Assembly: GCA_964016885.1 (NCBI GenBank) | Contig: OZ024742.1 | Span: 332,444,001-332,508,000 of the forward strand | Source of the DNA: Eledone cirrhosa | Lineage: Eukaryota | Length of the DNA stretch: 64,000 bases | Direction: 5' to 3' | In this document: one piece after another, positions 407 through 63,922 of the stretch | Numbering within the stretch: the first letter of the stretch is position 1 | How the letters are laid out: the number at the start of each line of letters is the position of its first letter | Made by a program: the position numbers and the translations under genes | The notes under the pieces: model-generated | Seen by the model: only the letters and a program-made list of their open reading frames with translations | Database searches by the model: none | Told to the model about the DNA's origin: nothing

Positions 407-440
407 TTAACATTTCGGACGCTAGTCCTTCATCAGAAGA
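407..440 (-). ncRNA. Minimal type-I hammerhead ribozyme (PLE pLTR-like)
   Basis: Minus strand reads TCTT-CTGATGA-A-GGAC tagc GTCC-GAAA-TG-TT-AAGA. Both core boxes are present, with a 4-bp stem II, a 4-bp stem I (TCTT/AAGA) and a minimal stem III. Confidence 0.75.
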
Positions 441-578
441 AAGAATGATAAATAAGATAGATTGAAGGGGCGGGTGGGTTGTAATTGGAAAATATGTCTT
501 TAGATAAAAATAACAGGTCCATTCATCTTGACATTTCTGAAAACTGTTGGTGCTGGCGTTTTGTGTATGATATATAGA

Positions 579-683
579 AAAAGAGTCAGAGCCCCGACAG
601 CTGAGCTCCGGCCGTTTCAACAGCTAGGTCAGACCTAGCTATCGAAACGGCCAGAGCTCAGCCGTCGGGATCCTAACTCTTTT
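579..683 (-). repeat. 52-bp-arm imperfect hairpin
   Basis: Arms 579-630 and 632-683 are reverse complements with 8 transition mismatches, 7 of which are G-U pairs on the minus strand. Confidence 0.9.
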
Positions 684-3600
684 CCTACTCTACTACCTAG
701 TTTCGAGTACTTTGGTGCGTATGGTCCACCTGGTTACCTACCACACTTCCTTCGTTGTATATATATATAGGGTGTGTGTGTATATATATATATATATATA
801 TATATATATATATATATATATATATATTGTTTATATATATGTGTGTATGTCCCAAAGCAGTGAGCATTGTTACTCTCGAGTCTCACCTACACACTCACAG
901 AATCATCAGAAAAGACTATTATATACAATATATATATATATATATATATATATATATATATATATATATATATATACATATATATATATACACATATGTA
1001 TGTGCGTGTATGTGTGAGTGTGTGTGTCTGTGTGGGTGACTGTGTGTGTGTGTGTGTAAGTGTATGTGCTTGCGTATGTGTGTGTAAGTGTAACAGTCAT
1101 ACATAAATCGAAATAAATCCATCTCTATTTCGTTGTTCCTTAAAAGCTCAATGGGAATTAAATAGGAAAATTATCATATTCCTGAGAATACACGTGCAAT
1201 AATATTACAGAAAGAATAACAATTATATTTTGTAATACATGGGTCTAGACAAAAGTAATCAGATCATATCAGCAGTTTCTGTGTAAAAATTCCCACTCAC
1301 AAGTCATTGGTCTATCGGAGGGTATAGAAATAGTTGACTGGGACGGGATCATAAAATACGTGGTTACATTTTAAACTACTACAGCAGACAGCCATGTTAA
1401 GGAACTCTAAAATATCGCTATACTATAACAGCAAAAGAAAGTCGTGTGAGAAACCTTATGTAAAATGTACTAATCGATAAATGGTTCCCTCTTCTCTAAG
1501 ATTTGTGATTTTCATTATTTTTTCTATTCCCTTACTCCTGCCAACCCACACACCGTTTCCTTTTCCGCATCTCGCTTTCTCTACTTCATTCTCATTCTCT
1601 CTCTCTCTCTCTCTCTATCTATCTATCTATCTATCTCACTCTCTCTGTCTCTCTCTCCATTTCTTTCTCTCTCTCTCTCTCTCTCACTCTTTATGTATCT
1701 ATCCATGTATATGTATATATATATATATATATGTGTGTCTGTATGTGCGCGTCTGTGTGTGTGTGTGTATGTATATGCATATATGTGTGTGTATATATAT
1801 ATATATGTATATATATATATATATACATATATATACATATATATATACATACGCACGCATACACATAAAAAACGCACGAGCTCACAAACAAACGAAAACA
1901 CACGCAGACACACTACTTGATCACACACAAATACTCACAAATACCAAAATCTCCTTCCCCTGCCCCTCTTTATCTTCCCTCTACTTTTATCCATAATTTA
2001 CAGTTAAACAACGACAAAAAAAAATTCTATGATAAAGTGCATCAAGAAAAGACAAACTTGCATCTTACAACACGTGCACCTTCCCTGCAGTGGCGTATGT
2101 ACTTTTAGCAAGATTTATCTGCACAAACATTGTCATGTGGTGCACAATGATTACTATACTGAAGTAGTAGTAGTAGTAGTAGTAGTAGTAGTAGTAGCAG
2201 CAGCAGCAGCAACAAACGCTGCAACACTACTATTGCCTTAAAAACAAAAATCACCACCTGTACTTACGCCACTAGTTCGAAGACAACGACAACGAGCACA
2301 ATCACAATAACAAAAGCAACACTACTATTAGCAATACCACCACCACCACCACCCCCAGTAATACAACTCTGTTCTTCAGTCGCCTACCACCAACACCAAC
2401 ACCAACAACGACACCTTTTCAACATGTTTTCATTAATGGAACTGCAATTTATGCGCTCGATATTTAGAAAAATTCATCAAACATTCTTAAAATCACATTC
2501 CGACAGCACCGTTACATTCAGCAATGTAGATCTACATACACTAACACGAATCATTGTGGCAAGAACGCATTTAATGATAGGCGGAGCTGGTGCCTGGTTA
2601 TTTAGCACCCGTATAAGTGTGGGTTCGCTTGCGGCTAAAAATATATTAGTGTCAAACAAAATTACACTGTGCGCCCCGTACTCCCAAATATAATAAATTC
2701 AACTGGCTAACTTACAAAACTACTTTTTGACACTTCTTGCTTTTACTATACGAAGAAAATTAAGGCTGAATGTTTTTTCTACTAGAGTCGAAATTTTGGA
2801 TGGTTTCATAACACTGCAACGCGGTAAATATGTTTAGTGAATTATGTATTGTTCGCAAGGAATTCTACTTTTAATAGAATTATACACCATTCTATAAAAC
2901 TGATCCTTTCATGCACAATAATATGCAGCTCGGTGGTGTATGTCTGCGTAATTGACCTTAATGGTAGAGTCGGCCCTAATCTGGGTGGGTTTGCTTGCGG
3001 CGAAAATACAATATATTAGTGTCTAGCATACCTACCAAAGTCAAATTTACCTTCCATCCATTCGGAATCGATAAAGCAAATACCAGTCAAATACTAAGTT
3101 TTAACTAACTATACCCACCTCCCAAATGTCAGCATTGATCAAAATGAATTATGATCAAACGCATTCTATACATGATCACACCGTTTTCGATTCTTGGTTT
3201 ACATTATTCAACGTGTTCTTTATTTTTAAAGATGTGATTTGAGGGGAGATTTGGCTGCTATTATCAGCAAGTTAAAATGCCGGCATCTGCTTTACTCGTG
3301 GTGGTGACCATTTCTTGTTTCAGGTATAGTAACACTGGCAGCGAGATAGAAGTTGGTGGGGGTGATTGTGTTGGTGGTGATAGGGATTGTTGATTCTGTT
3401 GTAGGGCTGATAATGTTGCCGTTGGTTGTTGTTGTGGTTTATGTGATAGTGGTAGTTGTGGGGGTAGTGGTGGTGGTGTTGGAGGTGGTAGTGGTGTTGG
3501 TGGTGGTGATGGTGGTTGGGTGGTTGTAATGGTTACGCTGAGGTGTTAAGTCATAAGAATGTTCATGCTTTAGTAGAGGTGGTTGTGTTGATGGTGGTGA

Positions 3601-4127
3601 TGGTATTGGCGCTTGTAGTGAGTTAGTGGTCGTGTTTGTGGTGGCGCTGAAGGTATGGCGTTAATTAATGCCAGTTCATTACTGTCTGCCTGTCTGTCTA
3701 TTACTGGAGAAGTTGCCGTAGGACATGGCTGTATCGTCATTGCAGCCATCAATCGGATATGTAGATTTTGAGTAGTTTACTTATTTCTTTATTTATTCAT
3801 TTATTGACTGCAACACATATTTCCTTCCTGTTACTTCCGGTAATTCCAAGACAGAAAATTACTTCTCTAGAGGAATGACTCATAACACAGTTAAGTCTCT
3901 CTCACTAATTCCTACCAATCAACCAATCCAGGCAGACATATCGAACACACATTTAGAGATCGTGACAAATTCAAGCTTCCGACCTATTAATTAGCTTCTA
4001 CTTCTCTGTGACTGACGCAACACTAAATTGGAGTTCATTCTTGCAATTAGTTCCTAATTTCGAAACCAGTACTAATTGATAAAGACATTTATTATTATTA
4101 TGACAATTATTATTATTACAATTACAA

Positions 4128-4276
4128 GGCGGTGGATTGGCAGTATCGGTAGAGGATCGGATGCCATGCTTTGAAGTATAGAGTTACCTCCCTGTATGAT
4201 CTGAGTTCAAATCCCGCCGAGGTTAACTTTGTCTTTCATCCTTCCGGGGTCGATAGAATAAAGTACCAGTAATGCA
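4128..4276 (+). mobile_element. tRNA-derived SINE family A
   Basis: A-box-like TGGCAGTATCGG, B-box GAGTTCAAATCCC and body gccgaggttaactttg-ctttcatcc-cggggtcgata-aataaagtaccagt, repeated many times in the window. Confidence 0.85.
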
Positions 4277-4305
4277 TTTATTATTATTATTATTATTATT
4301 ATTAT

Positions 4306-62487: not shown

Positions 62488-62564
62488 ATATTGTATTTTG
62501 TCTGAGGAAGGCATAGCATATTGTTAATATGATATCCCTGAAATATATATAATGAAATAAATAT
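62488..62564 (+). ncRNA. Hammerhead ribozyme in the 3' pLTR
   Basis: Copy of 58686-58762 with one G>A change at the base of stem II. Confidence 0.75.
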
Positions 62565-63116
62565 GGTTTTATAAATATAGTTTCCATTTATTTAATATTG
62601 TATATATATATATATATATATAGACATATATATATATATATATATATATATATATATATATATATATGTATAGACATATATATATATATATATATTTATA
62701 TATATATATATATATATATATAAATATATATATATATATATATACATATATATATATATATACATATATATATATAAACATATACATATATAAACATATA
62801 CATATATATATATATATATATATATATATTATATATATATATATATATATACATATATATACATATATATATACATATATATATATATATATGTATACAT
62901 ATATATACATATATATATATATATATATATATACATATATATATACATATATATATATATATATATATACATATACATATATATACATATATATATATGA
63001 ATGTATATATAATGTATTTTGCAATACACTTTATGCTTAATTAAAAGTATTTTTAAGAACGTATGCTATTGTTTTAGAGTAGTGACAAACTCACTTACTT
63101 TAATCTCAGCAAACAA

Positions 63117-63181
63117 GGGGAGATAAGCCGACAAGGCCTTGTTTCGCATTGATTGATGCTTATCAAGGCTAACTACTCCCT
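63117..63181 (-). ncRNA. Hammerhead ribozyme with variant core UUGAUAA
   Basis: GGGAG..AGCC-TTGATAA-GCAT caatca ATGC-GAAAC-AAGGCCTT-GTC-GGCT..CTCCC. Confidence 0.8.
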
Positions 63182-63490
63182 CCTGTCTACTGAGATCACT
63201 GATGTTATATTCTTATAGAATTCTAGTAAATAATCAGGAACTGATTATACAGAGCGGTTGCCTGTCAGGCAGAAATTAAAAATTAGAATTGGAGCTCTGA
63301 AATAGCAATATATATATGAATGTATATATAATGTATTTTGAAATACACTTTATGCTTAATTAAAAGCATTTTGAAGACCGTATGCTATTGTTTTAGAGTA
63401 GTGACAAACTCATTTACTTTAACCTCAGCAAACAAGGGGAGATAAGCCGACAAGGCCTTGTTTCGCATTTATTGATGCTTATCAACAGGA

Positions 63491-63554
63491 GGGAGTAGTT
63501 AGCCTTGATAAGCATCAATAAATGCGAAACAAGGCCTTGTCGGCTTATCTCCCC
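63491..63554 (+). ncRNA. Hammerhead ribozyme with variant core UUGAUAA (inverted copy)
   Basis: GGGAG..AGCC-TTGATAA-GCAT caataa ATGC-GAAAC-AAGGCCTT-GTC-GGCT..CTCCC. Confidence 0.8.
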
Positions 63555-63848
63555 TTGTTTGCTGAGATTAAAGTAAGTGAGTTTGTCACTACTCTAAAAC
63601 AATAGCATACGGTCTTCAAAATGCTTTTAATTAAGCATAAAGTGTATTGCAAAATACATTATATATACATTCATATATATATTGCTATTTCAGAGCTCCA
63701 ATTCTAATATATATATATATATTAGGGTAAATATTGATGCAATTCAATTCAAGCACTCAACGTACTTTTTCCACATAGGAGTGACGGTGTAAATATGGAA
63801 TAAGGAAAAGCGAAGTAGTTTCAGATGTTCAAGTCCTTTAATAATAAT

Positions 63849-63922
63849 GCTGTGATATATATTTCAATGACGACACTGGCCACACTGTTCTGTGTGCGAG
63901 TGTCGTGTCATCATCAGACAGC
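63849..63922 (-). ncRNA. Type-I hammerhead ribozyme
   Basis: GCTGT-CTGATGA-TGAC..GACACT...AGTGTC-GTCA-tt-GAAA-TATATA-TC-ACAGC. Confidence 0.85.

What the first reader, a model, noticed from the sequence alone, without database searches (positions are those of the whole stretch)
407..63922. Hidden zoo of about 13 hammerhead ribozymes from about 8 families, nested in (TA)n tracts
Seen: CTGAnGA/GAAA cores with pairable stems at 407(-), 19773(+), 24213(+), 27064(+), 45972(+), 46227(-), 49371(-), 49572(+), 58686(+), 62488(+), 63117(-), 63491(+) and 63849(-), about one per 5 kb. Nearly all have a palindromic stem III (GATC, CATG, TGCGCA, TATATA, AAGGCCTT, ACTAGT), and only three are attached to PLE coding sequence. 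Established: PLE pLTRs and animal retrozymes carry type-I HHRs whose palindromic stem III allows dimeric cleavage. Inference: a diverse population of non-coding, self-cleaving RNA parasites mobilised by (TA)n-targeting PLEs. They could also cut any host pre-mRNA that spans this region.
Basis: partly seen in the sequence, partly recalled or inferred. Interest (0 to 1): 0.8.

Follow-up and report, generated by a model that had tools for sequence, protein, structure and literature searches.

The report
Penelope-element hammerheads saturating an animal genome
The hammerhead-ribozyme motifs are real and sit at the tail ends of Penelope-like jumping genes and of three short non-coding repeats that these genes likely carry along; this is a known arrangement, but here it recurs about once every 7 kb in sampled stretches across the genome, and whether the motifs cut RNA is untested.

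Summary
The motifs are real. A type-I hammerhead descriptor finds 8 (strict) or 11 (relaxed) of the 13, against 0.2 or fewer per shuffle. Two have a U3:A8 core; two fail. They form 9 repeat families ending at (TA)n. Related copies show compensatory changes (8 of 15 pairs, 0/500 shuffles).

Six families are terminal-repeat ends of protein-coding Penelope-like elements (four Hydra, two Neptune-like), mostly 5'-truncated. Three (319, 660 and about 1,300 bp) are non-coding head-to-tail units, i.e. retrozyme-like. Both kinds are published, and this scan noted similar cases in other genomes.

The window is typical of its genome: 114 hits in 789 kb sampled extrapolate to roughly 430,000 motifs (280,000-620,000), against 126,247 reported for axolotl with a different descriptor. 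A young Hydra family has full-length open frames. Long-helix-II families keep a C-mismatch at helix-II position 4. Intact-looking motifs lie in host myosin gene spans in both orientations (15 sense, 24 antisense). Cleavage and expression are untested. Verdict: new variant of a known kind.

The parts
405..440 (-). F1 minimal type-I hammerhead, pLTR end of a Neptune-like PLE; helix III decayed (ATGT)
19775..19925 (+). F2a hammerhead, 116-nt helix II, palindrome ACGATCGT; sister of F2b
21830..22217 (-). Hydra-type GIY-YIG endonuclease fragment upstream of the dead core
24212..24293 (+). F3 hammerhead, 49-nt helix II, palindrome ACCATGGT; in a 5'-truncated copy (about 24036-24581) of a 660-bp non-coding head-to-tail unit
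27065..27204 (+). F2b hammerhead, 105-nt helix II; pLTR end of a Hydra PLE
45974..46007 (+). F4 minimal core with helix II and ACGT but no helix I; end of a Neptune-like PLE
46227..46277 (-). F5 hammerhead, 16-nt helix III with one extra substitution; end of a Hydra PLE
47500..48130 (-). Hydra endonuclease fragment of the same family as F5
49371..49440 (-). F6a hammerhead (ATGCGCAT) in the inverted arm of a 5'-inverted insertion (49324-49689)
49573..49642 (+). F6b hammerhead, palindrome interrupted; pLTR end of a Hydra PLE
58516..62600 (+). near full-length Hydra-clade PLE between (TA)n tracts: inverted tail, pLTR, RT-GIY-YIG ORF (about 58938-61144, one stop and one frameshift), long 3' UTR, pLTR
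58692..58757 (+). F7a hammerhead in the upstream pLTR, 31-nt helix II
62494..62559 (+). F7b hammerhead in the downstream pLTR
62989..63708 (.). F8 insertion: tandem plus inverted copies of a 319-bp non-coding unit
63126..63170 (-). F8a hammerhead, U3:A8 core, 12-nt palindrome
63445..63485 (-). third F8 core, 319 bp from F8a, 5' arm of helix I lost at the inversion junction
63501..63545 (+). F8b hammerhead, U3:A8 core
63848..63923 (-). F9 hammerhead, 45-nt helix II, in a copy of an about 1.3-kb non-coding head-to-tail unit

Best explanation
These are type-I hammerhead motifs at the 3' ends of nine repeat families: six families are tail ends of protein-coding Penelope-like retroelements and three are non-coding head-to-tail units that are likely copied by the same enzymes. 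Shown: each family has many dispersed copies and a fixed 3' end at (TA)n; copies are variably 5'-truncated, often with an inverted partial copy; helix III is palindromic. Inferred mechanism: a transcript running through two same-strand copies (pLTR-ORF-pLTR, or a tandem unit) would pair the two palindromes into one helix III, cleave after N17 and release a unit-length RNA, probably circularised. The Hydra or Neptune-like RT and GIY-YIG endonuclease would then insert it at (TA)n. Most genomic copies are truncated solo ends, predicted to be poor cutters because helix III is unstable as a monomer. The zoo is therefore mainly the footprint of a large, partly recent Penelope expansion.
For: Descriptor excess over shuffles and decoy cores. 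Covariation among 11 F8-related sequences picked by their downstream flank: 8 of 15 pairs change on both sides, 0/500 shuffles, slid controls 0-2. Helix-II positions 5-7, not used by the descriptor, are Watson-Crick in 18, 17 and 16 of 19 long-helix clusters. Same-strand upstream PLE coding sequence: F2 7 of 30 loci, F6 3 of 30; F1 2 of 20; F5 in L246 and the window; F4 in L243 and L241. No shared upstream extension beyond the unit for F8 (30 loci), F3 (25) or F9 (25); longest ATG ORFs 28, 76 and 46 aa. Same-strand spacings of 318-325, 660-661 and 1304-1311 bp. Hydra motifs in the window ORF match Craig 2021 section 11. 24 of the best 150 RT matches lie in open frames of 744 aa or more. No helix III folds alone, while intact 8-12-nt palindromes give duplexes of -3 to -19.5 kcal/mol. 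F8 active fold: -6.2 against MFE -12.9 as a monomer, -32.7 against -34.5 as a dimer. Tail motif shared by F9 and Hydra families F6 and F7.
Against: No cleavage or expression data. Published activity is often weak: low for PLE minimal hammerheads (PMC4209133) and 1 of 9 Xenopus dimers (Li 2026). F4 lacks helix I in the family copies shown, so some families may be non-catalytic. Helix I beyond position 5 pairs only patchily above permuted controls. Only the best 20-30 loci per family were read, out of 800-3,955 candidates, so rare coding parents of F3, F8 or F9 are not excluded. No sequence link from F3 or F8 to a specific autonomous family was found. The F3 and F9 circles are only weakly more structured than shuffles (z -1.75 and -1.87). 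Clade assignment rests on motifs, not on a tree.
Confidence: 0.85

Rival explanations
1. All nine families are independent non-coding self-cleaving RNA parasites.
For: Most copies are short and ORF-free; three families are non-coding tandem units; further tandem arrays of about 310, 480 and 590 bp appear in sampled stretches.
Against: Six families continue upstream into PLE RT or endonuclease sequence on the same strand in some copies, and show variable 5' truncation without a short tandem unit.
Confidence: 0.05
2. The motifs are real hammerhead descendants but mostly no longer cleave. They persist as a structural signal for the PLE protein or as passengers of the pLTR.
For: F4 has no helix I yet about 2,549 candidate copies. 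Naiad PLEs thrive without canonical hammerheads (PMC8557442). Intact-looking motifs are tolerated in sense orientation inside host genes. Reported in vitro activity is low.
Against: The core is kept while helices covary, including the C3:G8 to U3:A8 swap. N17 is A, C or T in all 33 clusters, though the descriptor forbids G. Related retrozymes cleave and circularise (PMC7229834).
Confidence: 0.2
3. Solo or neighbouring motifs cleave host pre-mRNAs often enough to matter for host RNA processing.
For: 15 strict motifs lie in sense orientation in about 400 kb of nine myosin gene spans, including one same-strand pair. Motif homologs lean antisense (23 sense to 31) while a SINE control leans sense (26 to 15; Fisher p=0.06).
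Against: No significant strand bias (15 of 39, p=0.20; insertion level 6 sense, 8 antisense, 8 both). Monomer helix III is predicted unstable, and 8 of 22 insertions carry both orientations, which would fold into a hairpin. No host gene was found in this window.
Confidence: 0.12
4. Chance matches in AT-rich repetitive DNA.
For: 42 bare CTGAnGA cores occur against about 21 expected, so bare cores are common. A few descriptor hits in the samples are low-complexity artefacts.
Against: 8 against 0.2 or fewer in the window, 114 against 0-3 in 789 kb, plus covariation.
Confidence: 0.01

Closest known systems
Hydra-clade Penelope-like elements (Craig et al. 2021, PMC8557442), including Hydra-1_Obim of Octopus bimaculoides
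   Same: C-terminal GIY-YIG, DKT motif, CxCX5C linker, (TA)n targets, 3' hammerhead, inverted 5'-truncated copies; the U.U pair at the base of helix II also appears in their File S2.
   Different: The paper found few families outside cnidarians. Here a Hydra RT piece has 24,795 first-look candidates and many full-length open frames. Helix II reaches 116 nt (their Hydra entries are short), most listed Hydra helix III loops are not perfect even palindromes, and tails run to about 90 nt against 30-40.
Minimal PLE hammerheads (Cervera and de la Pena 2014, PMC4209133; Lunse et al. 2017, seen only as a citation)
   Same: F1 and F4 have the short ACGT helix III and the extra nucleotide after A9; solo dispersed motifs from truncated PLEs, opposite-strand pairs and the U3-A8 core were all described.
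   Different: Most families here have 8-16-nt palindromes and long helix II; reported counts were about 2,000-9,000 per genome.
Animal non-LTR retrozymes (Cervera and de la Pena 2020, PMC7229834; Li, Clavereau and Pollet 2026, 10.64898/2026.07.22.740005)
   Same: F3, F8 and F9 are non-coding, under 50% GC, head-to-tail units with one type-I hammerhead per unit, beside autonomous PLEs.
   Different: They show the full PLE insertion signature (5' inversion, tail, TA target). F9 at 1.3 kb exceeds the reported 51-972 bp. The estimated motif load (about 430,000 in 3.0 Gb) exceeds axolotl's 126,247, though descriptors differ. Circular RNA is not shown here.

Membership tests
Type-I hammerhead ribozyme | CUGANGA (or U3:A8) and GAAA core with UH cleavage site, H not G | tested here: met
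   13 of 13 sites have both core halves
Type-I hammerhead ribozyme | helices I, II and III can pair and covary | tested here: met
   11 of 13 pass the relaxed descriptor; covariation counted for the F8 group only; not met for F4 helix I
Type-I hammerhead ribozyme | self-cleavage | not testable with these tools
   needs an in vitro assay
Type-I hammerhead ribozyme | match to Rfam hammerhead models | tested here: not met
   0 matches at gathering threshold; none among the 150 of 272 rows shown at E up to 5. Rfam models are narrower than the class.
Hydra-clade PLE (F7 element) | single ORF, RT then C-terminal GIY-YIG | tested here: met
   ORF pieces at 58912-61144; siblings in open frames of about 745 aa
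Hydra-clade PLE (F7 element) | DKT, CxCX5C linker, CxxC and CxH in the endonuclease, no CCHH | tested here: met
   read by eye from the translation against section 11 of PMC8557442
Hydra-clade PLE (F7 element) | N-terminal RWK motif | tested here: inconclusive
   RWR in the window and in L106
Hydra-clade PLE (F7 element) | (TA)n insertion and 3' hammerhead | tested here: met
Hydra-clade PLE (F7 element) | phylogenetic placement with published Hydra RTs | not tested
   no tree built
Neptune-like PLE (F1, F4) | CX2-5CxxC linker and CCHH-type GIY-YIG after RT | tested here: inconclusive
   linker and endonuclease motifs seen in decayed copies L158, L160, L131 and matched in L243; Neptune versus Nematis not resolved
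Non-LTR retrozyme (F3, F8, F9) | non-coding head-to-tail units, a hammerhead in each | tested here: met
Non-LTR retrozyme (F3, F8, F9) | short unit, GC under 50% | tested here: met
   319 and 660 bp within the reported range, F9 longer; GC 0.34-0.38
Non-LTR retrozyme (F3, F8, F9) | highly self-paired circle | tested here: inconclusive
   F8 z -6.8 (60 shuffles); F3 -1.75 (25); F9 -1.87 (6)
Non-LTR retrozyme (F3, F8, F9) | expressed as circular RNA | not testable with these tools
   no RNA run was available to lay
Non-LTR retrozyme (F3, F8, F9) | target-site duplication | not tested
   hard to read inside (TA)n

The most novel reading that the evidence does not exclude
This genome carries the densest hammerhead load yet reported (about 145 intact-looking motifs per Mb), driven by a still-active Hydra radiation. 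Its long-helix-II ribozymes use an unrecognised architecture, a conserved C.C mismatch at helix-II position 4 standing in for loop 2. Sense-oriented intronic copies cleave host pre-mRNA by dimerising through shared palindromes, so ribozyme cutting is a routine feature of host transcripts.
Probability: 0.12. Interest if true: 0.8.

Novelty: new variant of a known kind. Interest (0 to 1): 0.42.

Why it matters
The kinds are known, but three points add something. First, scale: an estimated 280,000-620,000 motifs that Rfam does not detect. Second, the genome holds young coding Hydra elements together with non-coding units bearing the same insertion signature. That makes the proposed PLE-to-retrozyme dependence, and the still unclear job of the PLE hammerhead, directly testable in one system. 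Third, dozens of natural variants with helix II of 11-116 nt, helix III of 4-16 nt and a conserved C-mismatch give a ready series for asking what makes a dimeric hammerhead active and why host introns tolerate it.

Tried and rejected
Rfam scans gave only microsatellite-driven miRNA matches in the rows shown and nothing at gathering. Pfam found no family for the Hydra ORF pieces, and the homolog search returned proteins with no informative names. No RNA holder was listed; laying three contig runs showed related F8 sequence in runs of three coded organisms and says nothing on expression. My first reading that F9 is ORF-linked was wrong: the Hydra ORFs in L098 and L106 are separate insertions behind (TA)n. 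Hydra fragments near F8 in L076 and L089 lie outside the unit and are not shared between loci. Candidate cores at 31849, 55561, 51802 and 23441 had no homolog in the sequence held and were left uncalled; 909, 20174, 25514 and 32711 belong to other repeats or to the F2 3' UTR. Two short motifs of the published Hydra-1_oBim hammerhead were absent from the sequence held, so that family is not shown to be here. The intron test covers 9 of the 18 or so myosin gene spans seen. Lunse 2017 could not be read. A search for a C-C mismatch in stem II found 0 papers; 'hammerhead ribozyme' plus 'octopus' found only Craig 2021 as relevant. Subscription journals are mostly not searched.
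Full report
Setting. The window is G000:C3:332444001-332508000 of a 3.0-Gb animal assembly. It is 34% GC and 5.6% (TA)n, like the sampled genome (5.5%). It holds LINE fragments, an 8-copy SINE-like repeat and Penelope-like pieces. No convincing host exon was found among 88 of 116 complex non-TE ORFs sent to Pfam (three weak hits, all under cut-off). The repeat landscape resembles an octopod's from recall; I did not test this.

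Observation. Bare CTGAnGA cores are common (42 against about 21 expected), so I wrote a type-I descriptor: core, GAAA, helix II up to 130 nt, palindromic helix III, helix I, N17 not G. It finds 8 of the 13 sites and nothing else in the window. Shuffles average 0.07-0.18 and decoy cores give 0-1. Allowing a weaker base of helix II gives 11 of 13 (shuffle mean 0.1). The two failures are 436, whose palindrome has decayed, and 45977, whose family lacks helix I in the copies shown. The pair at 63166 and 63505 has the U3:A8 core described from Schistosoma PLEs (PMC4209133). Two further cores, 63485(-) and a dead one at 21074(-), were missed. Rfam detects none at gathering threshold.

Structure support. 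Eleven F8-related sequences were chosen from 41 distinct ones retrieved by their downstream flank; I picked divergent ones by eye. Eight of 15 pairs change on both sides, 95% of cells pair, 0 of 500 shuffles reach this, and slid controls give 0-2 such pairs. The shuffle ignores relatedness, and the measure 'further pair types' was not above shuffles. Across all sequence then held, 510 hits fall into 76 clusters, 33 seen in two or more loci. In the 19 clusters with helix II of 20 nt or more, positions 5-7, which the descriptor does not use, are Watson-Crick in 18, 17 and 16. Position 4 is a mismatch in 15, always with C on the 5' side (C.C in 11). These clusters are related, so they are not independent. 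Helix I beyond position 5 gives mixed support.

What carries them. Genome searches for eight families gave 800-3,955 first-look candidates each; the best 20-30 loci were read, some overlapping. Copies share a 3' end at (TA)n (11/20, 15/17, 17/25, 18/19, 20/20, 27/30, 18/28, 21/25; background 0.089). They are variably 5'-truncated and often carry an inverted partial copy (F8 22/30, F6 14/30, F9 12/25; F1 and F4 0/20). This is the PLE insertion pattern described in PMC8557442. The element at 58516-62600 has pLTR-ORF-pLTR structure. Its broken ORF shows DKT, CxCX5C, a C-terminal GIY-YIG and CxxC/CxH, the Hydra-clade marks. An RT piece has 24,795 candidates; the 150 scored are 98-100% identical and 24 lie in open frames of at least 744 aa, so the family is young.

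Coding versus non-coding. Same-strand upstream Hydra coding sequence was seen for F2 (7 of 30 loci) and F6 (3 of 30), and for F5 (L246 and the window). Neptune-like coding sequence was seen for F1 (2 of 20) and F4 (L243, L241). By contrast F8, F3 and F9 are head-to-tail units of 319, 660 and about 1,304-1,311 bp (12 of 30, 3 of 25 and 2 of 25 loci show a second same-strand copy). Their longest ATG ORFs are 28, 76 and 46 aa, and no flank is shared beyond the unit except the same locus or other repeats. F9 shares a tail motif with Hydra families F6 and F7. So 9 of 13 motifs are PLE ends (one by sisterhood) and 4 are retrozyme-like.

Density. In 79 ten-kb stretches at evenly spaced, hand-chosen places on large contigs (789,028 bases), the strict descriptor found 114 hits in 65 loci, in 40 of 79 stretches. 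Six shuffles gave 0-3 and three decoy core pairs 1-5. This extrapolates to about 433,000 motifs (bootstrap 281,000-623,000) in about 247,000 loci. Five hits are one low-complexity artefact and tandem arrays inflate the variance; decayed copies are missed. The window (8 in 64 kb) is typical. Published counts seen: axolotl 126,247, mussel about 5,000, Xenopus about 9,000, all with other descriptors.

Mechanism. No helix III folds as an isolated hairpin, whereas intact 8-12-nt palindromes form duplexes of -3 to -19.5 kcal/mol. For F8 the active fold is 6.7 kcal/mol above the monomer MFE but within 1.8 of the dimer MFE, and its unit folds as a well-paired circle (z -6.8); F3 and F9 are weaker. I infer dimer-dependent cleavage of tandem transcripts, release and probable circularisation of unit RNA, and PLE-driven insertion at (TA)n, as modelled in PMC4209133, PMC7229834 and PMC6765202. 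None of these steps is shown here.

Host pre-mRNA. Myosin-head exons defined gene spans; nine were fetched (399,800 bases). They hold 39 strict hits, 15 sense and 24 antisense (p=0.20); at insertion level (relaxed set) 6 sense, 8 antisense and 8 both. Homologs run 23 to 31 and a SINE control 26 to 15 (Fisher p=0.06). Intact-looking motifs are thus tolerated in host genes, and selection against cleavage is neither shown nor excluded.

Literature seen. PMC4209133: parts 1-2 of 4. PMC8557442: abstract, passages, section 11, supplement searches and part 2 of 59, which lists Hydra-1_Obim with a hammerhead. Li 2026 preprint: parts 1-3 of 5; its supplements were not seen and may bear on unit sizes and counts. 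PMC7229834: passages and sections 14-15. PMC6765202, PMC7761336 and PMC13282606: passages (the last has no 'ribozyme'). Lunse 2017: citation only. Searches showed no report of this density, long-helix-II set or C.C mismatch; the library omits most subscription journals. Earlier scan notes report Penelope hammerheads and a retrozyme-like unit in other genomes; none exist for this genome.

Verdict. Real motifs of known kinds. The unusual features are scale, the Hydra expansion, the long helix II with a conserved mismatch, and non-coding units with a clear PLE insertion signature. New variant of a known kind; interest 0.42.

Noticed in passing
G000 sample: Long-helix-II hammerhead clusters keep an unpaired C at helix-II position 4 (15 of 19; C.C in 11) with pairing resuming right after; possibly a tertiary contact.
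   Followed up: partly
window 45974-46007 and L162-L180: F4 family keeps the core, helix II and ACGT but at most one pair of helix I in the copies shown, yet has about 2,549 candidate copies.
   Followed up: partly
L204, L215, L229, L342 (310 bp); L231 (about 480 bp); L220 (592 bp): Further tandem hammerhead units not present in the window, with arrays of up to 11 copies; one has a U3:A8 core and a 57-nt helix II.
   Followed up: no
window 26627-27086: F2 3' UTR has a 230-bp duplication whose first copy ends in a remnant of the 5' half of the hammerhead; seen in 24 of 30 loci.
   Followed up: partly
L114 and L115, 5' junction of F9 copies: SINE sequence sits at the 5' truncation junction of F9 insertions, suggesting template switching onto SINE RNA.
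   Followed up: no
window 49324(-), 58596(-), 58806(+), 63782(-): Shared tail motif (ACTCC...GAGTGC, possible hairpin) just beyond the short 3' end in F6, F7 and F9; candidate signal for the Hydra protein.
   Followed up: partly
window 4130, 11842, 14674, 15693, 33526, 41001, 50521, 51292: About 180-bp SINE-like repeat, 8 copies; 84 matches in 789 kb sampled.
   Followed up: partly
window 20050-20240 and about 660-760: Two other palindromic repeats resident in (TA)n without a hammerhead; the second is often beside F8 copies (L086, L087).
   Followed up: no
window 4100-11100 and 34200-41000: Decayed LINE copies with RT fragments; 9944-11050 repeats at 39909-40996.
   Followed up: no
G000:C3:886075-1200575: Two myosin-head matches on one strand 314 kb apart, possibly one gene with very long introns.
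   Followed up: no
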